Virus record (IMG/VR): IMGVR_UViG_3300030333_005399 | Coordinates: 7,830-71,829 of that record | Length of the DNA: 64,000 bases | Source: a virus | Reading direction: 5' to 3' (one strand) | Shown: positions 23,221 to 63,191 of the stretch, piece by piece | Layout: every line of letters starts with the position of its first letter | Numbering within the stretch: the first letter of the stretch is position 1 | The notes under the pieces: generated by a model | Told to the model about the DNA's origin: nothing | The model's database searches: none | Seen by the model: the letters and a program-made list of their open reading frames with translations, nothing else | Program-made: the position numbers and the translations under genes

Positions 23221-24129
23221 TCAATTAGATCCTTCATCTCTTATTTCTCCCCATTCTCTAAAGCTATCTATTCTATCGTAGATAGATTCGTCTATCAAAT
23301 CTGGCTCCGCTCCAACATTCCACATCCATGCACCTGTACTACCACCTACCGACTTTGTTCCTTTATGCTTCATGTATTTCCAAACCTTTGCATCGTAATT
23401 GTACACAGTTGGAAACGGAGGCCACCAATCTTTCTTTTCATTTTTTAAAAAGGGTAGCGGATCAGATATTACATCTGATCTACCTAGCTCGCCTTCTTTG
23501 AGGTTTCTAGATACAGCGACAGAATAGAACTTAGCGTTTGGCCACCCGATTTGTAATCCTCTTGAAAGGACTCCAGTTGATATGGCACACCATACCTCTT
23601 CGGGTTCTCCATGTTGTTTCGCTATAGTATCCGCCACCCTTACCACTCCAGCAACTACTAACGGGTGGTATAAACCGAGTGGTACAAAAAAACCACCCGT
23701 TGATTCGGCGTACTCTTTGGCCATTTTATTTAAATTAGGCATGGCCGCAATTCTCCTAAATTTTGGTACGGCCCCTCTCTCAATGCACACAGCTTGATGA
23801 TCCGATACTCGTTTTGATGAGGGCATGAATAATACAACCTTTTTACCGTACCTCTTCGCAGCTTCAAGTATTGAGACTCCTGCTAGTCCCTTCCTTGGCT
23901 GCACATAAACAATAGTGTCCTCCTTGACTTGGCTTATGAGGTAATCTCCAAACCTTGCTTTACTTCCCACTATCTTGTCGTCCCTAACCACATTGAATCC
24001 TTCGTGCTGAATTACCTCAGGTGTACCGTAAGGATCTTCCCATCCATCAGTCTGATTCAGGTACCACTCTCTCGTGTATTCCTGAAGATCCTTGTTCTTT
24101 CCATCAAGTATGTGATTATTATGAGACAC
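23221..24129 (-). CDS. PLP-dependent enzyme, fold type II (TrpB-like)
   Basis: VRDD...GSKAR (Schiff-base Lys), AISTGVLSRGL phosphate loop, YDAK and WNVG. Confidence 0.75.
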   Translation of the reverse strand: MSHNNHILDGKNKDLQEYTREWYLNQTDGWEDPYGTPEVIQHEGFNVVRDDKIVGSKARFGDYLISQVKEDTIVYVQPRKGLAGVSILEAAKRYGKKVVLFMPSSKRVSDHQAVCIERGAVPKFRRIAAMPNLNKMAKEYAESTGGFFVPLGLYHPLVVAGVVRVADTIAKQHGEPEEVWCAISTGVLSRGLQIGWPNAKFYSVAVSRNLKEGELGRSDVISDPLPFLKNEKKDWWPPFPTVYNYDAKVWKYMKHKGTKSVGGSTGAWMWNVGAEPDLIDESIYDRIDSFREWGEIRDEGSN

Positions 24130-24229
24130 TACTTAAACCTGTTGTGAATGTCTTCTAGTAAATGTATGAATGCTATACCAAACACCATCAGTCCACTGAA
24201 CTGAATCATGGATAGACCGTCTGCCCACA

Positions 24230-25201
24230 TTATAAAGTCACCCATTCTGAATTTCTCCTGTAGTATGGAGGTGCTGTGTGTACAGAACCACCTAGTTCCA
24301 TGTAAGTTTTAGCGTACTCTTCCCCATCCATAGTGTACCTCTCGACTGGTGGGGCAATCAAAGGAAAGTCCCACTGTTTAACAGTATTCATTATCTCAAA
24401 CGTCTTCTTAAACCTTTCATCCCTACTTCCGTAGAATGGTGTACCCTTAAAGAAACCAGTCTTAGGAATCTTACGACCTTCGAACTCGACGGGCACCGGG
24501 GCACCAATTTCGACGGTCACGCCGATACGGTCGCGCAAGCGATTAGCTTGTACACGGTACTCTTCTAACAGCTTACCGAGATCAACAGACTCGGGTCGAC
24601 AGAGGTGATGACGTACATCGATGCTTCCCAAACTGAGAGTTATTACCTCCACACTGGGTGCCACTTCGATATCGTCGAGCAACCTCTCCTTTAGTACACC
24701 GTAAAGCGTTCTTCCATCCTTCTTTAGAACAGCAGCTTTGGAAGGTGCGTAAGCAGGAGTATGAGAATCTCCCCAACACAACCACTCGTGACCCAAACCA
24801 GCATGATCCATGTAAGGTACGTGATAGCACCAATCGCTTAACTGCTTGCACCACTCTTCGGTAATCTTTTTACTCGTACTCGCAGCCTTGAGTCTCTTAG
24901 CCAAGAACGCACCGTAATCGGGCATCTCCCAATCCAAACTCGTGACGCGGTCGGGCGACACACCCATCAAACGGTCGAAGCGTTCCCAAACCTCGTCTCC
25001 AGCACCAGCAAACAGGTTTAAGGCACCGGACCAGTTAACTCCATGGTCGAGGTACACGGTATCGTAATTCAATACCTCTTCGGTACAGCGTTCGTTTATG
25101 TCCGCGTCCAAACGATCGGCCCATGTCAGAGACCAACCCCTTACGTGGGACTTCTCGTGCATGGGTATGTTAGTCGCGGGACTTGTTATAACCTTACTCA
25201 T
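24230..25201 (-). CDS. Protein with C-terminal SGNH/GDSL-like domain
   Basis: WGDSH, GRTLYG, LGSIDVRHH, SVH. Confidence 0.5.
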   Translation of the reverse strand: MSKVITSPATNIPMHEKSHVRGWSLTWADRLDADINERCTEEVLNYDTVYLDHGVNWSGALNLFAGAGDEVWERFDRLMGVSPDRVTSLDWEMPDYGAFLAKRLKAASTSKKITEEWCKQLSDWCYHVPYMDHAGLGHEWLCWGDSHTPAYAPSKAAVLKKDGRTLYGVLKERLLDDIEVAPSVEVITLSLGSIDVRHHLCRPESVDLGKLLEEYRVQANRLRDRIGVTVEIGAPVPVEFEGRKIPKTGFFKGTPFYGSRDERFKKTFEIMNTVKQWDFPLIAPPVERYTMDGEEYAKTYMELGGSVHTAPPYYRRNSEWVTL

Positions 25202-25249
25202 TAGAAACCTCTTTCTTTATTATATATATTACTCAAATCTCTCAAAATG

Positions 25250-25780
25250 CTATTTAATTTTCTCTAAGTCCCACTTGTCCCACAAAGCGTCTACGTAATC
25301 CTTAGCGGACTTGAGACTGACAGTGTGACCGTACCACTTATCGGTAAAGGCCCTGTACTCCTTGATAGCGGCTATCTTGTTCTTGGGGTAGAACTGCTTT
25401 AGACCCTCGGTGGCTGCGGTCTTTGGTACCGATAACCTACCGAACACTGCATACTTCTTCCACAGACAGTTAGCCTGAGTCTTCTCGGCCCTAGATAACC
25501 CGGTCTTGGAGTGCTCGAAGTTATCGAATACTACAGCCGAGTGTAGATCTGCTTTGAACTCGTCGGTGTGTAGGTAAAGCTGACCTGTCTTTTCAGACTT
25601 GGCCATCTCTGCCCAGCGGAGGATCCTGCGGATTAGGGTCTTGGTTAGAGGTTCTCCTGCCTCCTTGAGCACCGTGTTAGGGTTACGTCGGGCCCAAAGA
25701 TCGTCTAGGTTGTAAAGGCTTTTGTAGTCCATTATGTTAATGTTCCTCCATTTGTCTTTTCCACTACGCAAAACAGGCAA
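25250..25780 (-). CDS. Hypothetical protein with L7/L12-CTD-like tail (true start probably MDYK near 25733)
   Basis: KIAAIKEYR...SLKSAKDYVD. Confidence 0.5.
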   Translation of the reverse strand: MPVLRSGKDKWRNINIMDYKSLYNLDDLWARRNPNTVLKEAGEPLTKTLIRRILRWAEMAKSEKTGQLYLHTDEFKADLHSAVVFDNFEHSKTGLSRAEKTQANCLWKKYAVFGRLSVPKTAATEGLKQFYPKNKIAAIKEYRAFTDKWYGHTVSLKSAKDYVDALWDKWDLEKIK

Positions 25781-25964
25781 AGCTTAGGGTAGAATATCAT
25801 CCTGCCGTCTAGCCGTTTGCCGCACTGCGAGCATTTTTTATGTTTAGTAGGTTTCTTCATATTATATGAATGGGTGTATATATTCAACCTGGGGTAATAA
25901 AATCATCGTGGTGGTAAAATAGGCTTGTGCACGTATAAAAAAAGTAATTCGATTCCGATTTCCG

Positions 25965-25997
25965 CCAGGGGCGGCCCGATGTGGGCCACCTACCTGG
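25965..25997 (-). other. GC-rich hairpin downstream of the AAA gene
   Basis: CCAGG-TA-GGTGGCCC-ACATC-GGGCCGCC-CCTGG; T-run about 20 nt downstream. Confidence 0.55.
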
Positions 25998-26020
25998 GGA
26001 CTTGAGGTTACCAGTCTCAA

Positions 26021-27172
26021 TTAAGCTTCCTCGCTTACGTCTTCGAACAGCTCGTCGGATGAACCGTCGTCAGTGTACTTTTGCAGTAGCTGCTTGACGA
26101 AGGTTCTCTCCGACTCGACTCCACCGGCCGCATCGAACTTGGGAAGTACTGCTACCTCGGCAGACTCAGTCAGTGTAAACCCGTCGTAGAGCAAGCTTGC
26201 TATCTCTACTGTGGATCGGGTACTTATATGGGTGGATAACCTGCCCTCTTCCGAACTAGACTCGCTGCGTGTAATGAATGCAAGCTCTGCCACGTTTTCG
26301 ATTAATTCGGCTTTTACATTTGGGTATAACCCACTTAGTAAGCTTACTTCCTGTTCTTTGTTCAAGACGTCCATCTCAATCTGTGTGAACCTATCCAGTA
26401 GAGCTCTGTCGAGAACCCTTGTCGCGGTATACTCGTTACCGATGTTAGCAGTAGCGATAAAAGTAACGCCTTTTGCTACGTTAATAGTAGCCTGGCCGTC
26501 AGCCTCGTCTAACCTGAGATACCTCTGTCCTTCGTCTAGTACTGTCATAAGGATATTCCAAGCTTCAGGATGAGCTCTTGATAACTCGTCGAGTAATATA
26601 ACCGCGTTCTCAGTCTGGATAGCTTTAACGAAAAGCGCTTCTGAGAAGTAAGTGCCTTTCTCTTTGTTATAATGTGTATTACCGATAAGGGTAGCACGTG
26701 GATCCTGTGTGGAACCTAAGTTAAAGTAGAACTCAGGTCTGTCGAGAGATTTAACTAGACTCTTTGCAGCCATAGTCTTACCACACCCGGCGGGACCAGT
26801 CATCATAATGTTCTTACCTCTCATCGCAGATCTTACTAAGTACTTCCACTTAACCTCATTCATGATAAGACTATTTGGCTTAAGCTTGTAAGAACTGTGT
26901 ATATATGACAAAATGTCATTATGATCTTCGCTGACGTCTTCGGTAACCGTGACGACTACAGCTTGTTCATCCCACTCAGACTTAGTAGCAGGCCTCCAAA
27001 AGATACGCCCAGTGCTACCAGTCTTACGTACTGCATAACCAGTATCGGCTAAGATCTGTTTACGTTTATATGACGGCATCTCCTTAGAGTAGTCAGTGCC
27101 ATTTTGACATACTGCTCTGGTGCGACTGCCGACAGTTTCAATTTTTACTATTACATTTGTGTTTGAGTTCAT
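26021..27172 (-). CDS. MoxR/CbbQ/CobS-type AAA+ ATPase
   Basis: GPAGCGKT, LLDELSR, ATAN, DRALLDRF, STR. Confidence 0.92.
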   Translation of the reverse strand: MNSNTNVIVKIETVGSRTRAVCQNGTDYSKEMPSYKRKQILADTGYAVRKTGSTGRIFWRPATKSEWDEQAVVVTVTEDVSEDHNDILSYIHSSYKLKPNSLIMNEVKWKYLVRSAMRGKNIMMTGPAGCGKTMAAKSLVKSLDRPEFYFNLGSTQDPRATLIGNTHYNKEKGTYFSEALFVKAIQTENAVILLDELSRAHPEAWNILMTVLDEGQRYLRLDEADGQATINVAKGVTFIATANIGNEYTATRVLDRALLDRFTQIEMDVLNKEQEVSLLSGLYPNVKAELIENVAELAFITRSESSSEEGRLSTHISTRSTVEIASLLYDGFTLTESAEVAVLPKFDAAGGVESERTFVKQLLQKYTDDGSSDELFEDVSEEA

Positions 27173-27199
27173 TTGGTAACCTCTTTATTTAATTTCTAT

Positions 27200-27243
27200 T
27201 AGAATCTACACGTAAAAACCGGTTAATGTACATGCTTTTTTTT
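27200..27243 (-). promoter_or_regulatory. Conserved phage promoter motif, copy 5
   Basis: GCATGTAC-N19-TAGATTCTA. Confidence 0.8.
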
Positions 27244-27261
27244 AAAAAAATGCGTTTTTTT

Positions 27262-27621
27262 TCAATAAATATCGGGAGGCATATCTGAATAGTCTCGGGT
27301 GTCGGAGTACTCTTCATCATCAGGTTTGTCGTAGTAGTCATCGGATACACCGCGGGACTCCATACTACCAGTTACTACCCCGCCGCCGGGCTTAAAGCCT
27401 GAATTGTACACTATACCGTCGCCGTGCTTCCTTAGATGAGTGTTAACCTTACGCCGCTCCATAAAGTCTATCAGATCCTGCTCGTCGAATAAAACCTTGC
27501 TGTTGCTGCGTACGCCCATCTTTATATAGGGAAGGACTCCTTTCCTCCTGTACCCGTCTATGGTAGACTCGGTCATGTGCAACATTTCCGCGGCTTGCTT
27601 TTTTGTAAGATATTTTGGCAT
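27262..27621 (-). CDS. Excisionase/MerR-like HTH DNA-binding protein with acidic tail
   Basis: YLTKKQAAEMLHMTESTI..YRRKGVLPYIK...VLFDEQDL. Confidence 0.8.
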   Translation of the reverse strand: MPKYLTKKQAAEMLHMTESTIDGYRRKGVLPYIKMGVRSNSKVLFDEQDLIDFMERRKVNTHLRKHGDGIVYNSGFKPGGGVVTGSMESRGVSDDYYDKPDDEEYSDTRDYSDMPPDIY

Positions 27622-27943
27622 AGTATATATGACACCTTGGCTTAAAAAAATTTTCTCTGAACGAACGCGAGCTTACTCACCATACTCTCCTGGATCATAG
27701 ATTTTCTTATGAATAAGTATCGATTAGTCTACATTTTTCACAAAGACCAGTGCTGCTATATCGGCTCCATATTCGATTGGGGTGCGACAAACTCTATAAC
27801 CTCTAGACCTATATTAGCGGTACCATATACTCCATATTACTAGACTGATAAACCCGATAACGTGTACCCAAAACAGGACTTGCCACGCCATCCACAGTAC
27901 GGGGACCATTAGTACCGTGATACCTAGGATTACGAGTCCCTCT

Positions 27944-28168
27944 TTACTTTGCCAGCTCATTAGGATCCACCTCGGCTCCGCAGTCCCTACACACGTTTAC
28001 TTGAAGTTGAATTAGTTCGCTTTTACCCGTTGGGCTCTGTATAGCGGATATTCGTTTCATTCTAACGGCTGACTCGAATAAGAGGCATCCACACTCCTTG
28101 CATCCTACGTCTTCGAGTGTACTTGGATCTATCTGTAATGGTGTTCCTTGTTGCGGTATGTTCTGCAT
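27944..28168 (-). CDS. Small zinc-ribbon protein
   Basis: CKECG and CRDCG. Confidence 0.65.
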   Translation of the reverse strand: MQNIPQQGTPLQIDPSTLEDVGCKECGCLLFESAVRMKRISAIQSPTGKSELIQLQVNVCRDCGAEVDPNELAK

Positions 28169-31045: not shown

Positions 31046-31534
31046 TTAAAAATCTCCATAATCTACTTGAAAACATGTTAATCCTTCCATTCTCCACATA
31101 TCAACCACTTTTTGTCTATCGTCAAATACACCCAAAACCTTACTTCTATCTGGACAATGATCTTCCAACATTCTATACTTTAAGACTTCATCAGAAATAT
31201 AGAGTTCCTTCTTGTTTGAAGGTCTCATAACCAATTTGTGATACTTAATGTCGTGTTCTTCTAACCATATCTTTGTGGCTAACTTAGTTCTATCAGATCT
31301 TCCACTGAATATGTATATGGATGCTCCACTATCGTAAAGTAACTTACACATAGTCACAACTGGAATATTTGGAACATCTAACTTTATATTTTTTGGATCG
31401 TGTAACACATTCCAATTTATTTTATTATAGTCGGCTTCTCTAGTCTTATTTGCTGTTGCTAACTTCATACGTTCATCTGTGTTAGCTAATGTTCCGTCTA
31501 AGTCGAAGATTACTATTTTATCTTTTACAGACAT
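31046..31534 (-). CDS. HAD phosphatase (PseT C-terminal domain-like)
   Basis: DLDGTL, SGR, MRP, FDDR, TCFQV. Confidence 0.9.
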   Translation of the reverse strand: MSVKDKIVIFDLDGTLANTDERMKLATANKTREADYNKINWNVLHDPKNIKLDVPNIPVVTMCKLLYDSGASIYIFSGRSDRTKLATKIWLEEHDIKYHKLVMRPSNKKELYISDEVLKYRMLEDHCPDRSKVLGVFDDRQKVVDMWRMEGLTCFQVDYGDF

Positions 31535-31907: not shown

Positions 31908-31987
31908 ATTATTTCCTTTAATATATAACGTTAATTACGTAATTATTTGTGAGACTAACATTAACCCCATTAAACCGGAGAAACAAA

Positions 31988-32320
31988 ATGAGGACATTAG
32001 GTTGTTTGTTATTGATGGGCATGGTGGCTGCCCAAAATCCTTCGGTCGAAGGAAGCCATCCACCCATACCAAAAAAACCATTTGAATTGAACGTATCAGA
32101 TTTACCATCCACTCACCAATACTATAAAGGTGGTACCATACATGTTGAATTTATCGTTAATGAGAATGGCGACGTTGAAGACGCTATCGTAGTAGACACT
32201 TTTGATGTACGTTACAGCACCGCTATTTTGGAGAAAGTAATGGATACTAAATATATTCCTGCTCATCAAAATGGCATTCCAGTTAGAGTTAGATATAAGT
32301 TACCTATTGCGTTTAGATAA
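31988..32320 (+). CDS. Signal peptide plus TonB C-terminal domain
   Basis: GTIHVEFIVNENGDVEDAIVV...KYIPAHQNGIPVRVRYKLPIAF; GGAG RBS before ATG 31988. Confidence 0.8.
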   Translation: MRTLGCLLLMGMVAAQNPSVEGSHPPIPKKPFELNVSDLPSTHQYYKGGTIHVEFIVNENGDVEDAIVVDTFDVRYSTAILEKVMDTKYIPAHQNGIPVRVRYKLPIAFR

Positions 32321-32339
32321 GAATGAATGGGAGGATTGA

Positions 32340-32621
32340 TCACTTCTTTCCTCCCTTCTTATCAGCTGGTTTCAAACCTAAATCACCTAAAAAATCTGCC
32401 CATCCGACTTCATCCTCTGGTGGTGCTTGTGGAATTCCTAACGAATCTAACAATTCCATATAGCTCATTTTCTTTGTTACTTCACTATGTAACCTCCCTA
32501 GTTTTATTAACATATCTTCATTTTCTTGAAATAATTCCATCATCATTTCTATTGCCCATATACACTGATTTAACTGATGACCAGTGATTAAAAACATATC
32601 GTCTTTTCTATAATACTTCAC
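32340..32621 (-). CDS. Hypothetical protein
   Basis: Overlaps the upstream stop. Confidence 0.5.
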   Translation of the reverse strand: MKYYRKDDMFLITGHQLNQCIWAIEMMMELFQENEDMLIKLGRLHSEVTKKMSYMELLDSLGIPQAPPEDEVGWADFLGDLGLKPADKKGGKK

Positions 32622-33153
32622 TCAACAATATCCTTTGCTGCTTTTTATTATGTGAATGTACAAATGTTAAATGGTTGTTTATATTAGACTTGGTGATCAA
32701 TGTGATTTCGTCTTTAGAATATAGATCATTAACATAGTCGACACTCTTATGATAACCATCTTTGATAAACATTTTAATAGCAGTTCTCATAACATCTTTG
32801 ATTGAGCGGGTGGACGGAATCGAACCGACAGCATCAGCTTGGAAGGCTGAGGTATTACCACTATACGACACCCGCAGTTTTTTCTTTTCTTTGTTAGCGT
32901 AATAATCTTTTAACCATCTATCCCATGATCCACTACCTTTTGCAACCTTACTACCACCAACACTACGTCTATCCATTCTACGTAGACTATTTTTAGTATC
33001 ACTACTTACTGGTTGTACATAACCACCAGTCTTGTGTGGATATACGATGTGAGCTGAATACTTCTCCACATCACTACATTTAGTACATTCTTTGTATCCT
33101 AAATGTATCCTTGTGTGTGGCATAAACTTACCACACGATTTGCAATTATTCAT
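32608..33153 (-). CDS. Zinc-finger phage protein containing an in-frame tRNA sequence
   Basis: CKSC and CTKC; GAGG RBS and promoter motif; no stop codon across the tRNA. Confidence 0.7.
   Translation of the reverse strand: MNNCKSCGKFMPHTRIHLGYKECTKCSDVEKYSAHIVYPHKTGGYVQPVSSDTKNSLRRMDRRSVGGSKVAKGSGSWDRWLKDYYANKEKKKLRVSYSGNTSAFQADAVGSIPSTRSIKDVMRTAIKMFIKDGYHKSVDYVNDLYSKDEITLITKSNINNHLTFVHSHNKKQQRILLSEVL
32805..32875 (-). tRNA. tRNA-Gly(TCC), CCA not encoded
   Basis: GCGGGTGTCGTATAGTGGTAATACCTCAGCCTTCCAAGCTGATGCTGTCGGTTCGATTCCGTCCACCCGCT; perfect acceptor, D and anticodon stems, one T-stem mismatch. Confidence 0.88.
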
Positions 33154-33172
33154 GTAACCTCTCTGGTATATA

Positions 33173-33215
33173 TAGAATCTACACGATTTACCCGGTTAAT
33201 GTACATGCTTTTTTT
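33173..33215 (-). promoter_or_regulatory. Conserved phage promoter motif, copy 7
   Basis: Identical to copy 2 across core and spacer. Confidence 0.8.
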
Positions 33216-33303
33216 CACTTTTTCTTAAAAATATACACATATTTAACCTTGAGAGGACTTTCGACAGGTCCTCTTTTTCTTTGGAACAAATGGAGAATAA
33301 CAA

Positions 33304-33525
33304 ATGAAAGAAGCCATAACAATGGTCAAGGTGTGGATAGATGATATTGTACATCTACTCATGTCCTTTGTGGCAGTAGGCGCAATGTCAGAAGTCCTCT
33401 TTGGCAGCGGTGTCTTCGGTGTAAATGTTATTGGTAACCTAACAGCAATAATAGGTAAATTCGGTGAATCTGGATTTGCTGGGTTAGTCGCTTTATTGCT
33501 ATTAGTTGGATTGTTCCGTAAATAA
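33304..33525 (+). CDS. Small hydrophobic membrane protein
   Basis: GGAG RBS; two hydrophobic helices; bounded by hairpins. Confidence 0.75.
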   Translation: MKEAITMVKVWIDDIVHLLMSFVAVGAMSEVLFGSGVFGVNVIGNLTAIIGKFGESGFAGLVALLLLVGLFRK

Positions 33526-33536
33526 ATAGGAAGTAT

Positions 33537-33567
33537 AGAGGGGACCTCTGGTCCCCTCTCCTATTTT
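33537..33567. terminator. Intrinsic terminator between convergent units
   Basis: AGAGGGGACC-TCT-GGTCCCCTCT stem-loop. Confidence 0.7.
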
Positions 33568-33808
33568 GGAAATACCTATATACATTTGGGAATGGTTATC
33601 AACTCTATTTTATATCTTCTTCGTATGTCTTCTGTGTAAGATGTGGTGGGATAACAGTTAAGATTTTTTATTATACTCTTTGATCCTAACACTGAGAGGT
33701 TTTCTATTATTCATCCATTCAAGTATACGTTCTCTATTACTATTGGAATTCCATAGTTTGAGATTGCTCAAATCATAAAACAAAACAGCATTTATCCAAA
33801 GAAATGCC

Positions 33809-34156
33809 TTATTCTTCATTTTTAGATTGATATTTTGACAAATCTAGGTTCGGTAATGGTTTTTCTATTTTCAAGTCTTTTAACTTTGAATTAGCCACTA
33901 CAAGTTTTGAACCACCTACTATTTGTCCGTTTACTACGTGGTATATGAAGAACACTGTCTTCCATAAACCGACCCTTACTATACGACCAGGATCGCCATC
34001 AACCTCAACAACGTCATCTTCATTATAGTCGTTCCCTAGAAAGATCATTAATCCATCGACTGCTTCTCGAATTGTATTTTGAAATAAAAGGAGGGCGATA
34101 CCACTTACAAGTAACCATGAATATTCACCTACAACCTTTTGTAGAATCTGTTCCAT
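33809..34156 (-). CDS. MscS beta-domain-like small membrane protein
   Basis: TM helix then YNEDDVVEVDGDPGRIVRVGLWKT...VANSKL. Confidence 0.6.
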   Translation of the reverse strand: MEQILQKVVGEYSWLLVSGIALLLFQNTIREAVDGLMIFLGNDYNEDDVVEVDGDPGRIVRVGLWKTVFFIYHVVNGQIVGGSKLVVANSKLKDLKIEKPLPNLDLSKYQSKNEE

Positions 34157-35256: not shown

Positions 35257-35700
35257 TTATTGTCCTTCGTATATTTGAGGTACTTCAGCTAACTCGAATG
35301 CAAGAGAATCGTAAGTGTAATACCATATCTCATCATTTCTGCGTTGGTGATATAATCTACCTTCACCATCAGATTCGATATTGTATTGCCATTCACCATC
35401 AACATCTGGGATTCCCAATAACATGTTGATCTGAACGTTACGACTCCTGTTGATCACTTCGAGTGGATTATATGGCCACGCCTCAAGTCCTGTAGACATT
35501 AATGTCTCAGCTGCATGTTCCTCTAATCCTGCCCAAATCATATCAGCGAATGCTTTCTCAGCTGATGCCTCAGCGTTATCGACTGTGTCTTGATAACGTG
35601 GTATAGCGACTGCTGCTAAGATTCCAAGAATGATTGTGACCATCACTAGCTCAATCAATGTGAAACCTTTTGATGTATTCTTTAATATGTTCATGTTCAT
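35257..35700 (-). CDS. Type IV pilin/pseudopilin
   Basis: Class III signal KG|FTLIELVMVTIILGILAAVAIPRY. Confidence 0.92.
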   Translation of the reverse strand: MNMNILKNTSKGFTLIELVMVTIILGILAAVAIPRYQDTVDNAEASAEKAFADMIWAGLEEHAAETLMSTGLEAWPYNPLEVINRSRNVQINMLLGIPDVDGEWQYNIESDGEGRLYHQRRNDEIWYYTYDSLAFELAEVPQIYEGQ

Positions 35701-63108: not shown

Positions 63109-63118
63109 CATTTTTTTG

Positions 63119-63191
63119 TGGAGCTGATAGGGATCGAACCTACGACCTCCGCAGTGCAAGTGCGGCGCTCTCCCAACTGAGCTACAGCCCC
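63119..63191 (-). tRNA. tRNA-Ala(TGC), CCA not encoded
   Basis: GGGGCTGTAGCTCAGTTGGGAGAGCGCCGCACTTGCACTGCGGAGGTCGTAGGTTCGATCCCTATCAGCTCCA; cloverleaf with G3-U70. Confidence 0.95.

What the first reader, a model, noticed from the sequence alone, without database searches (positions are those of the whole stretch)
32608..33153. Complete tRNA-Gly nested in frame inside a same-strand protein gene
Seen: the 71-nt tRNA-Gly(TCC) at 32875-32805 is translated as LRVSYSGNTSAFQADAVGSIPSTRS between a Zn-finger N-terminal part and a helical C-terminal part. There is no stop, and the ORF has its own promoter motif and RBS. Inference: one transcript could yield either protein or tRNA, because RNase P/Z processing would cut the mRNA, giving a processing-based switch. 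Alternatively the tRNA was inserted into a linker and may be decaying (one T-stem mismatch, followed by CAA not CCA).
Basis: partly seen in the sequence, partly recalled or inferred. Interest (0 to 1): 0.8.

Follow-up and report, generated by a model that had tools for sequence, protein, structure and literature searches.

The report
Working tRNA gene inside a protein gene
In this marine phage a complete glycine tRNA gene also serves, read in frame, as the flexible linker of a conserved two-domain protein, and related phages carry other tRNAs at the same spot, which is a rare case of one stretch of DNA kept for two different products.

Summary
A tRNA-Gly(UCC) at 32805-32875 (-) scores 62.1 bits in Rfam. 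It lies in frame inside a 181-aa ORF, 32608-33153 (-).

Homologues are single proteins of about 165-200 aa, so both flanks belong to one protein. It has an N-terminal C4 zinc ribbon and a C-terminal four-helix domain. The tRNA encodes residues 93-117, which AlphaFold predicts as a coil between the domains.

The case is not isolated. Of 180 related loci, 27 carry a sense-strand tRNA at the same linker position with the frame open through it: Gly 16, Cys 6, Ala 3, Trp 2. One clade keeps only a 12-bp acceptor-type hairpin. Most relatives have a plain Lys/Pro-rich linker.

The tRNAs evolve as RNA. They show compensatory pair changes, and their synonymous sites are nearly frozen. The flanks evolve as protein, with pN well below pS. 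Twelve of 23 distinct carriers have no possible internal start for the C-domain.

Both products therefore appear to be under selection. The tRNA is not decaying. A processing "switch" is plausible but untested. I found no description of this arrangement in phages in 8 literature searches. The closest known cases are mitochondrial.

The parts
32608..33153 (-). ORF of 181 aa (ATG 33153-33151, stop TAG 32610-32608): two-domain phage protein of unknown function that reads through the tRNA
   Evidence: 617 homologues with E <= 0.001; both halves align to single proteins
33158..33163 (-). Shine-Dalgarno-like GAGAGG, 4 nt before the ATG
   Evidence: read from the sequence; not tested further
32878..33153 (-). 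N-terminal part, residues 1-92: CxxC-x15-CxxC zinc ribbon, invariant YSAH.VYPHKTG, DRR and SWDRW motifs, helix 76-94
   Evidence: invariant columns; AlphaFold model; pN well below pS between carriers
32805..32875 (-). tRNA-Gly(UCC), 71 nt up to discriminator U73; read in frame as residues 93-117, the inter-domain linker
   Evidence: covariation; synonymous sites frozen; coil with pLDDT < 50 at residues 99-110
32611..32802 (-). C-terminal part, residues 118-181: four-helix domain with invariant G133, Y134, I150
   Evidence: pLDDT above 90; conserved columns; pN/pS about 0.1-0.55 between carriers
32340..32621 (-). next ORF of the same strand (93 aa, GTG start), overlapping the end of the tRNA-bearing ORF by 14 nt; probably the same transcription unit
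   Evidence: no Pfam family

Best explanation
The locus is a dual-product gene. It encodes a conserved phage protein with an N-terminal zinc ribbon, a flexible linker and a C-terminal four-helix domain. The linker is encoded by a functional tRNA-Gly(UCC) gene lying in frame on the same strand. Ribosomes that read the whole mRNA turn the tRNA sequence into a 25-residue disordered linker. Transcript copies in which the tRNA folds are cut by the host's tRNA-processing enzymes: RNase P at G1, a 3' endonuclease or exonucleases after U73, then the CCA-adding enzyme. This releases tRNA-Gly, which reads GGA, 39% of this phage's glycine codons, and ends that mRNA copy. Most likely a transcript is translated for a while and then consumed to give the tRNA, so the ratio of products depends on ribosome traffic. 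In this protein family the linker is an exchangeable tRNA slot: relatives hold Gly, Cys, Ala or a Trp-type derivative of the Gly tRNA, a minihelix relic, or plain linker sequence. Shown here: the anatomy, selection on the RNA structure, selection on both protein domains, and maintenance of the frame. Inferred: the processing steps, the order of events, and any regulatory meaning.
For: tRNA quality: the window's tRNA scores 62.1 bits. Sixteen of 18 embedded tRNAs searched scored 52.1-70.9 bits, and L112, run alone, scored 55.3 bits.

RNA-level selection: in 9 distinct Gly/Trp sequences 93.7% of cells pair, against 35-54% when partners are slid. Four pairs changed on both sides and none on one side only, and 0 of 500 shuffles reached the covariation score. 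In 5 distinct Cys sequences 92.4% pair and 8 pairs changed on both sides. Several compensatory changes alter the amino acid on both sides: S to P with D to G in the anticodon stem, and V to A with S to A in the T stem. Synonymous divergence in the tRNA codons is 0.00-0.15 in the 11 Gly-Gly pairs (0.33 for Gly against Trp). In the flanks of the same pairs it is 0.28-0.95.

Protein-level selection: the flanks have pN 0.01-0.44 with pN below pS in all 12 pairs computed.

Frame maintenance: all 27 embedded tRNAs are on the sense strand with the ORF open through them (3 of the 27 genes are cut by a contig end). Ten distinct spacer/tRNA/spacer architectures each sum to a multiple of 3, including a 74-nt tRNA-Cys offset by a different upstream spacer. 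Twelve of 23 distinct carriers have no in-frame ATG, GTG or TTG between the tRNA and the conserved GY of the C-domain.

Linker: residues 95-117 are coil and 99-110 have pLDDT below 50, between a helix (76-94) and a confident C-domain. P0005, 76% identical, has an ordinary 21-residue stretch instead.

tRNA identity features are read; the rules themselves are recalled. Gly: G1-C72, C2-G71, G3-C70, U73. Ala: G3.U70, A73. Cys: U73. Trp type: A1-U72, G73, loop CUCCAAA.

The window's free-standing tRNA-Ala is 97% identical to the one nested in L116, so the same phage tRNAs occur free or nested. Codon use: GGA is 39% of 951 Gly codons in 57 long ORFs.
Against: There is no direct evidence of expression, processing, aminoacylation or the full-length protein. 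The one RNA run matched only the tRNA part, and with differences, so it probably shows other organisms' tRNA-Gly.

The window's tRNA has a U50.U64 mismatch and no encoded CCA.

The window, and 11 of the 23 distinct carriers, have an in-frame ATG, GTG or TTG shortly after the tRNA, so separate translation of the C-domain cannot be excluded for them. Some pipelines call that piece as its own 70-aa gene (P0278).

Cutting at the tRNA would leave a 5' mRNA piece without a stop codon, which is a cost. The protein's function is unknown, so the benefit of the linkage cannot be judged. Covariation rests on few sequences (9 and 5), which are related to each other.
Confidence: 0.75

Rival explanations
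1. Regulated switch. Processing of the tRNA and translation of the mRNA are set against each other on purpose, so the phage tunes protein against tRNA, for example by feedback through ribosome stalling or by timing during infection.
For: The arrangement makes the two fates of a transcript exclusive at any one moment (inference from the anatomy). One clade keeps only a 12-bp acceptor-type helix, with 2 compensatory pair changes, after losing the rest of the tRNA. This hints that the cut itself may be selected. The gene lies beside tRNA clusters in other lineages: 5 tRNAs end 46 nt before it in L020.
Against: Nothing measured bears on regulation. Close relatives do without any tRNA (P0005, L117, L125), so the protein does not need the coupling. 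The window's ORF has only 2 GGA among 8 Gly codons upstream of the tRNA, which gives no sign of a codon-sensing leader.
Confidence: 0.25
2. The tRNA is the only working product of the middle of the gene. The long ORF is a leftover of an insertion: only the N-domain is made, or the two domains are made separately, and read-through of the tRNA is not used.
For: The window and 10 other distinct carriers have an in-frame start codon soon after the tRNA. Gene callers of some sources list the C-part alone (P0278, 70 aa, on 10 contigs). A tRNA has no stop in about two of its three frames, so an open frame alone is weak evidence.
Against: Twelve of 23 distinct carriers have no ATG, GTG or TTG between the tRNA and the conserved C-domain, yet their C-domains show pN/pS of about 0.17-0.31 (L110/L119, L002/L109, L108/L114). 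All 10 architectures keep the frame. No carrier has a stop before the tRNA. None of the candidate starts has a clear Shine-Dalgarno motif.
Confidence: 0.1
3. The tRNA no longer works in translation. It survives as a linker-coding insert, or only as a structured processing site in the mRNA, like plant mitochondrial t-elements.
For: The window's tRNA has a U.U mismatch in the T stem and lacks CCA. The Trp-type derivatives have two T-stem mismatches and a C.A at 31-39. A relic hairpin exists in one clade.
Against: The anticodon loop, D loop and T loop are invariant in the 7 distinct Gly sequences while the flanks diverge to pS of 0.7 and above. Compensatory changes keep all four helices. Scores are 52-71 bits. 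The relic clade shows what is left when only a helix is kept, and the anticodon arm is then lost. The mismatch became a C-G pair in L119/L121.
Confidence: 0.08
4. Artefact: a chimeric assembly at a repeated tRNA, or a chance ORF.
For: Short-read contigs break inside the tRNA because it is a repeat in metagenomes. The mosaic pattern of N and C halves among short contigs could be assembly chimeras.
Against: The same arrangement is found in many independent records and collections, on contigs up to 134-141 kb. Both halves belong to one protein family. A chimera would still need a parent with the tRNA in the same gene.
Confidence: 0.01

Closest known systems
Mitochondrial tRNAs lying fully inside mRNAs in the isopod Armadillidium vulgare (Doublet et al. 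2015). I saw only the citing passage in PMC11571959; the paper itself is not held.
   Same: A tRNA gene lies wholly within a protein-coding transcript on the same strand, so tRNA release and an intact mRNA exclude each other.
   Different: That case concerns a tiny animal mitochondrial genome with reduced, edited tRNAs under extreme compaction. Here the tRNAs are canonical 71-74-nt cloverleaves in a large phage genome. They sit in frame in a disordered linker of a conserved protein, and different tRNAs occupy the same slot in relatives.
Plant mitochondrial t-elements: tRNA-like structures that direct RNase P or RNase Z cuts in mRNAs, including reading-frame-internal ends of nad6 and ccmC (PMC1920247; abstract and passages read).
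   Same: A tRNA-shaped RNA inside or beside an ORF serves as a cleavage signal. This is the best analogue for the 12-bp hairpin relic in L122-L126.
   Different: t-elements are not working tRNAs and are not described there as conserved protein linkers. In the window the element is a full tRNA with a conserved anticodon arm.
Co-transcription of tRNAs and mRNAs in bacteria and phages, such as the E. coli thrU-tyrU-glyT-thrT-tufB operon and the T4 tRNA cluster (recalled; no paper read here).
   Same: tRNAs are cut out of a transcript that also carries protein-coding sequence, by host RNase P and 3' enzymes. Related phages have this ordinary form, with tRNAs just upstream of the homologous gene (L020, L098-L100).
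   Different: In those operons the tRNAs lie between cistrons, so cutting does not destroy an ORF.
tmRNA (recalled).
   Same: One RNA with both a tRNA-like part and a translated part.
   Different: tmRNA is a dedicated rescue RNA with an alanine-accepting tRNA-like domain and a short tag ORF outside that domain. ARAGORN reports no tmRNA here, and here the tRNA body itself is translated.

Membership tests
tRNA (Rfam RF00005) | Cloverleaf of four helices scored by the covariance model above the gathering score | tested here: met
   62.1 bits against a gathering score of 29, full-length match 1-71; ARAGORN call
tRNA (Rfam RF00005) | Helices kept by compensatory change among relatives | tested here: met
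   4 pairs changed on both sides, 93.7% of cells paired, 0 of 500 shuffles as high; Cys set has 8 such pairs
tRNA (Rfam RF00005) | Seven-base anticodon loop with U33 and a purine at 37, and a conserved T loop | tested here: met
   Loop CUUCCAA and T loop UUCGAUU are invariant in the 7 distinct Gly sequences; the rule itself is recalled
tRNA-Gly of bacterial type | Identity elements U73, G1-C72, C2-G71, G3-C70, C35, C36 (recalled rule) | tested here: met
   All are present in the window's sequence
tRNA (functional) | Encoded or added 3' CCA, mature ends, aminoacylation | not testable with these tools
   CCA is not encoded (U73 followed by CAA); only L103 encodes CCA. The RNA run was uninformative
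DksA/TraR C4 zinc finger (PF01258) | Match to the Pfam model | tested here: not met
   No Pfam family for the window protein at E <= 1. PF01258 is not among the 25 families most often hit by the 114 members. There is only an Atlas lead at 0.87
tmRNA | tRNA-Ala-like domain with a tag reading frame | tested here: not met
   ARAGORN, which also searches for tmRNA, reports only two tRNAs
Intein or self-splicing intron insert | Splicing domain or ribozyme that removes the insert | tested here: not met
   The insert is 71 nt (25 residues). Rfam finds only the tRNA in 32000-34000 at E <= 1, and there is no Pfam domain
t-element-like processing signal | tRNA-like fold that is cut by RNase P or RNase Z but is not a working tRNA | not testable with these tools
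   The fold is present. Cleavage was not measured. The conserved anticodon arm argues for more than a signal

The most novel reading that the evidence does not exclude
The linker of this protein family is a dedicated, exchangeable tRNA slot, and the mRNA is built to be consumed by RNase P. Protein output and tRNA output are then coupled, as a timer or as feedback through ribosome traffic. In the relic clade selection has kept only the RNase P-type minihelix, which would mean that the cut in the mRNA is itself the selected function. The protein, which in other lineages sits at the end of tRNA arrays, would then act in tRNA or translation takeover.
Probability: 0.25. Interest if true: 0.9.

Novelty: new variant of a known kind. 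Interest (0 to 1): 0.8.

Why it matters
Sequence that serves both as a structured RNA and as protein-coding sequence is rare. Here the two constraints can be separated cleanly. In the tRNA stretch synonymous sites are frozen and amino acids drift; the flanks show the reverse.

The locus gives a natural system in which to study competition between ribosomes and RNase P on one transcript. It shows that a disordered linker can host a whole RNA gene. It documents tRNA replacement, and a Gly-to-Trp-type remoulding, at one fixed position.

It also matters for annotation. Pipelines that forbid overlap of a CDS with a tRNA split or truncate such genes (P0278, 70 aa), so similar cases may be hidden in phage genomes. 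The family has 617 members with E <= 0.001 in the protein collection and no cultured representative.

Tried and rejected
**Protein function.**
- Pfam gave nothing for the window protein. For the 114 members it gave only weak generic zinc-ribbon hits, best E 0.0038.
- PHROGs gave only phrog_30175, on the tRNA-coded residues 101-117.
- A PDB profile search had a best E of 0.37.
- Foldseek found no hit with E <= 0.001 against PDB or BFVD.
- The Atlas returned only unnamed viral clusters.

**Cultured relatives.** tblastn against 50,697 phage records found no match. blastn matched only the tRNA part, in 58 records, none of which covered 80% of the query.

**Search with the C-part alone in viral contigs.** None was found. 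This was a limit of the close-relative search, since the C-part is present in all homologues.

**Are plain linkers decayed tRNAs?** DNA alignments of L125 with L129, L117 with L112, and L117 with the window show no convincing remnant. My first guess that P0015 and P0031 were decayed was wrong: their loci hold intact tRNA-Cys genes.

**Donor or host of the tRNA.** The exact tRNA-Gly pattern (two D-loop bases free) has no match in one genome each of 185,579 species. The protein family was found on just two contigs binned as bacterial MAGs, which is not enough to name a host.

**Expression.** The only RNA run (X20) covered only the tRNA, with differences, and says nothing about this locus. Contigs cannot show RNA ends.

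**Promoter.** The number of sites was no more than chance.

**Mosaic N and C halves.** P0001/P0003 are N 100%, C 56% identical. P0001/P0006 are N 55%, C 100%. P0003/P0011 are N 55%, C 100%. P0006/P0011 are N 99%, C 56%. This pattern suggests recombination at the tRNA. Those proteins come from short metagenome contigs, however, and a 72-nt shared repeat can make assembly chimeras, so I do not count it as shown.

**Literature.** Eight searches found no paper describing an in-frame tRNA inside a phage or bacterial protein gene. The library lacks most subscription journals, and supplements were closed.

**Tools and steps not available or not done.**
- I did not run the 'shorter' protein search for split forms. 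The statement that no split form was seen rests on the 180 loci only.
Full report
**1. The observation**

The window is part of a 71.8-kb virus record, estimated at about 40% complete. It has 33-36% G+C, and nearly all its genes lie on the minus strand. Its gene content is that of a large marine tailed phage: a family-B DNA polymerase, CobS-type ATPase, glycosyltransferases and a PNKP-type phosphatase.

ARAGORN reports two tRNAs: Gly(tcc) at 32804-32875 (-) and Ala(tgc) at 63118-63191 (-). The whole record holds just these two. Rfam's tRNA model matches 32805-32875 end to end with 62.1 bits (gathering score 29, E 1.4e-12) and one non-standard pair in the T stem.

The ORF 32608-33153 (-) has 181 aa and contains the tRNA on the same strand. 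The tRNA runs from the third base of codon 93 to the first base of codon 117 and reads LRVSYSGNTSAFQADAVGSIPSTRS. The discriminator U is followed by CAA. GAGAGG lies 4 nt before the ATG. A sigma-70-type promoter is not supported: 8 sites were found against 7.5 expected, and none is in the right place.

**2. Not an assembly artefact**

- The identical protein is on record from 19 contigs.
- Other records carry the same arrangement, namely L102 at 100% and L105 at 98% identity.
- Nineteen DNA runs from 8 studies hold at least half of the sampled words of the stretch.
- Laid contigs break inside the tRNA, as expected for a repeat. They cross the 5' junction without a difference in three runs. At the 3' junction they reach only 27 nt into the tRNA, short of the tool's 31-nt rule.

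**3. Both flanks are one protein**

A search with the N-part found 20 viral loci. In all 20 the ORF runs on for 161-200 aa and includes a C-terminal part that aligns with the window's. Invariant residues lie on both sides: C4, C7, C23, C26, the YSAH.VYPHKTG block, DRR and W80 in the N-part, and G133, Y134, I150 and K155 in the C-part.

The protein collection holds 617 homologues with E <= 0.001 among proteins of 99-317 aa. At 50% identity there are 340 representatives, many of them fragments. None is in cultured phages. Public names are 'hypothetical protein', plus one automatic zinc-ribbon name.

AlphaFold (114-row alignment, mean pLDDT 73.7) gives a small N-terminal zinc-ribbon region and a helix at residues 76-94. 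Residues 95-117 are coil, with pLDDT below 50 at 99-110. Residues 118-180 form a four-helix domain with pLDDT above 90. The tRNA therefore codes for the flexible linker. No family or fold match gives a function.

**4. The same slot holds tRNAs in many relatives**

I collected 181 loci and examined them together with the window's own stretch. The window's duplicate locus L021 was left out. The gene was found in 180 of the 181 stretches examined.

Twenty-seven of these have a sense-strand tRNA inside the ORF at the linker: Gly(TCC) 16, Cys(GCA) 6, Ala(TGC) 3, Trp(CCA) 2. This count includes the window. L002 and L022 are one contig, and L102 is identical to the window. The ORF is open through the tRNA in all 27, and 3 of the genes are cut by a contig end. 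No locus has a tRNA following a truncated N-part.

Rfam reported 16 of the 18 embedded tRNAs searched, at 52.1-70.9 bits. L112 scored 55.3 bits when run alone. L113 was not re-run.

Among the 123 distinct full-length proteins from these loci, the linker types are:

| Linker type | Proteins |
|---|---|
| plain | 98 |
| Gly | 11 |
| Cys | 6 |
| relic hairpin | 4 |
| Trp | 2 |
| Ala | 2 |

Among the best 120 of the 617 database proteins, 27 carry a tRNA-coded peptide (Gly 21, Cys 3, Ala 2, Trp 1), 5 carry the relic and 88 carry neither.

Very close relatives differ only in the slot. P0005 is 76% identical to the window protein and has EPPKKREYKVVERPKPVPVKM in place of the tRNA.

**5. The tRNAs evolve as RNA**

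*Gly/Trp set (9 distinct sequences).* 93.7% of cells form standard pairs, against 35-54% when partners are slid. Four pairs changed on both sides and none on one side only. None of 500 shuffles reached the covariation score.

*Cys set (5 sequences).* 92.4% of cells are paired, and 8 pairs changed on both sides.

The changes ignore the protein. The anticodon-stem U-A to C-G change costs S to P and D to G. The T-stem change to C-G in L119 and L121 costs V to A and S to A.

| Region, same sequence pairs | pS | pN |
|---|---|---|
| tRNA codons, 11 Gly-Gly pairs | 0.00-0.15 | sometimes above pS (window against L119: pS 0.05, pN 0.18) |
| tRNA codons, Gly against Trp | 0.33 | 0.19 |
| Flanks | 0.28-0.95 | 0.01-0.44 |

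Only L103 encodes CCA.

Identity features fit the anticodons. The rules are recalled; the bases are read.
- Gly: G1-C72, C2-G71, G3-C70, U73.
- Ala: G3.U70 and A73.
- Cys: U73.

The two Trp-type genes have the Gly backbone, but with A1-U72, G73 and the loop CUCCAAA. This is a remoulding of Gly into Trp type by a one-base shift in the loop. They also have two T-stem mismatches and a C.A at 31-39, so their function is less sure.

The window's free-standing tRNA-Ala is 97% identical to the one nested in L116. The exact tRNA-Gly is in none of 185,579 species' genomes. These are therefore tRNAs of the phage lineage.

**6. The ORF is kept as protein**

In all 12 carrier pairs computed, both flanks have pN below pS. 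In the window against L104, for example, the N-part has pS 0.43 and pN 0.04, and the C-part has pS 0.38 and pN 0.10.

There are ten distinct architectures of upstream spacer, tRNA length and downstream spacer, and each sums to a multiple of three. Spacer differences are multiples of three, and the 74-nt tRNA-Cys of L042 is offset by its upstream spacer. Indels in non-coding spacers would not behave so.

Twelve of the 23 distinct carriers have no in-frame ATG, GTG or TTG between the tRNA and the conserved GY. Their C-domain can be made only by reading through the tRNA. The window itself does have an ATG five codons after the tRNA, without a clear Shine-Dalgarno motif. Some pipelines call such a C-part as a separate gene (P0278). 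For the window alone, separate initiation cannot be excluded.

**7. History**

I built a tree of the 123 distinct proteins with the linker columns removed. Twenty-one rows form one clade (SH-aLRT 80): Gly 11, Cys 4, Ala 2, Trp 2 and plain 2. Inside it a well-supported group of 8 (98) joins the window's Gly group with 3 Cys carriers and 1 plain form.

The relic clade (4 rows, support 99) lies next to it. So does a plain clade in which tRNA arrays end just upstream of the gene. Two further Cys carriers (L032, L042) sit in a distant clade (support 95) among plain forms.

At least 5 gains or losses of a structured insert are needed, and 11 changes of type. The root is unknown, so gain and loss cannot be told apart. 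The tree may also be blurred by recombination between the halves.

The relic in L122, L123 and L126 is a 60-nt hairpin. Its outer 12 bp begin with the acceptor stem of the L106-type tRNA-Gly and end with the same discriminator. Two pairs show compensatory change. L124 has lost 18 nt of the loop but keeps the outer stem. Twelve base pairs is the length of a stacked acceptor stem plus T arm, which I recall as the part of a tRNA that RNase P recognises.

**8. How it most likely works**

*Shown:* one DNA stretch is under selection both as a tRNA and as part of an ORF whose two domains are under selection.

*From established knowledge of bacterial tRNA maturation (recalled):* a tRNA embedded in a longer transcript is released by RNase P at its 5' end, by endo- or exonucleases at its 3' end, and by the CCA-adding enzyme. 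The flanks here are A-rich, and the tRNA arms form in the predicted fold with 30 or 60 nt of context.

*Inferred:* each transcript is translated while ribosomes keep the tRNA unfolded. It is cut when the tRNA folds, giving one tRNA and ending that mRNA. The tRNA reads GGA, which is 39% of the phage's Gly codons. This fits the usual role of phage tRNAs (recalled).

The relic hairpin and the gene's frequent place beside tRNA arrays are hints only.

**9. Comparison with what is known**

The nearest precedents are mitochondrial:
- tRNAs fully integrated in mRNAs in Armadillidium vulgare. I saw this only as a passage in PMC11571959.
- Plant t-elements, which direct RNase P/Z cuts, some inside reading frames (PMC1920247; passages read).

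Ordinary tRNA-mRNA operons and tmRNA are more distant (recalled).

Eight full-text searches found no report of an in-frame canonical tRNA inside a phage or bacterial protein gene. The library lacks most subscription journals, and supplements were closed.

**10. Verdict**

The dual-product reading is well supported by comparative evidence but has no expression data. The decay reading is rejected, and the switch is untested. I rate this a new variant of nested or dual-coding genes, of high interest.

Noticed in passing
63118-63191 (-): The window's free-standing tRNA-Ala(TGC), in a short spacer between two minus-strand ORFs, is 97% identical to the tRNA-Ala nested in the homologous gene of L116. 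The same phage tRNA therefore occurs both free and nested.
   Followed up: partly
L122:1777-1836, L123:1777-1836, L126:1777-1836, L124:1777-1818: In one clade the linker encodes a hairpin of 60 nt (42 nt in L124). Its 12-bp outer stem starts with the tRNA-Gly acceptor stem and shows two compensatory pair changes. It may be an RNase P-type minihelix.
   Followed up: partly
L114:1489-1559, L115:269-339: Two nested tRNAs have the tRNA-Gly backbone but anticodon CCA, A1-U72 and G73. This is a Gly-to-Trp-type remoulding by a one-base shift in the anticodon loop, with the reading frame restored within three codons.
   Followed up: partly
about 24000-28000: A G+C-rich island (0.44-0.47 against 0.33-0.36 elsewhere). 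It holds a CobS/porphyrin-type AAA ATPase (26021-27172), a phrog_13881 protein (24230-25201) and a threonine-dehydratase-like protein (23221-24129). These are probably host-derived metabolic genes.
   Followed up: no
31046-31534 (-): A protein with a polynucleotide kinase-phosphatase (HAD_PNKP) phosphatase domain, E 2e-31, lies about 1 kb downstream of the tRNA-bearing gene. In T4 such an enzyme takes part in tRNA repair (recalled).
   Followed up: no
31949-32320 (+) and 35257-35700 (-): A lone plus-strand gene has a TonB C-terminal domain (E 1.7e-07), and another gene carries a prepilin N-methylation motif (E 3.5e-07). Both point to a Gram-negative host.
   Followed up: no
residues 101-117 of the ORF (32803-32853): PHROG family phrog_30175 matches only the tRNA-coded peptide (E 0.0058). 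The family may be built from ORFs called across tRNA-Gly genes.
   Followed up: no
P0278 (cluster of P0015), P0288, P0290: Some sources list only the part of the gene after the tRNA as a short protein, for example 70 aa on 10 contigs. This is probably because their pipelines do not let a CDS overlap a tRNA, so such genes are split in public annotation.
   Followed up: partly
P0059; P0258, P0264: P0059 leaves the family in the middle of the tRNA-Gly peptide; the cause is unknown because its DNA could not be fetched. P0258 and P0264 are distant homologues whose called ORFs begin inside the T arm of an upstream tRNA.
   Followed up: no
L182, L183: The only two family members in the genome collection lie on contigs binned as bacterial MAGs, one labelled Gammaproteobacteria. 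They are probably phage contigs in bins, and at best a weak hint of the host.
   Followed up: no
all 27 nested tRNAs: The base after the discriminator is C in every nested tRNA, whatever its type, and the base after that varies (A, C or T). This may be a Ser/Thr/Ala codon constraint or a partial CCA.
   Followed up: no
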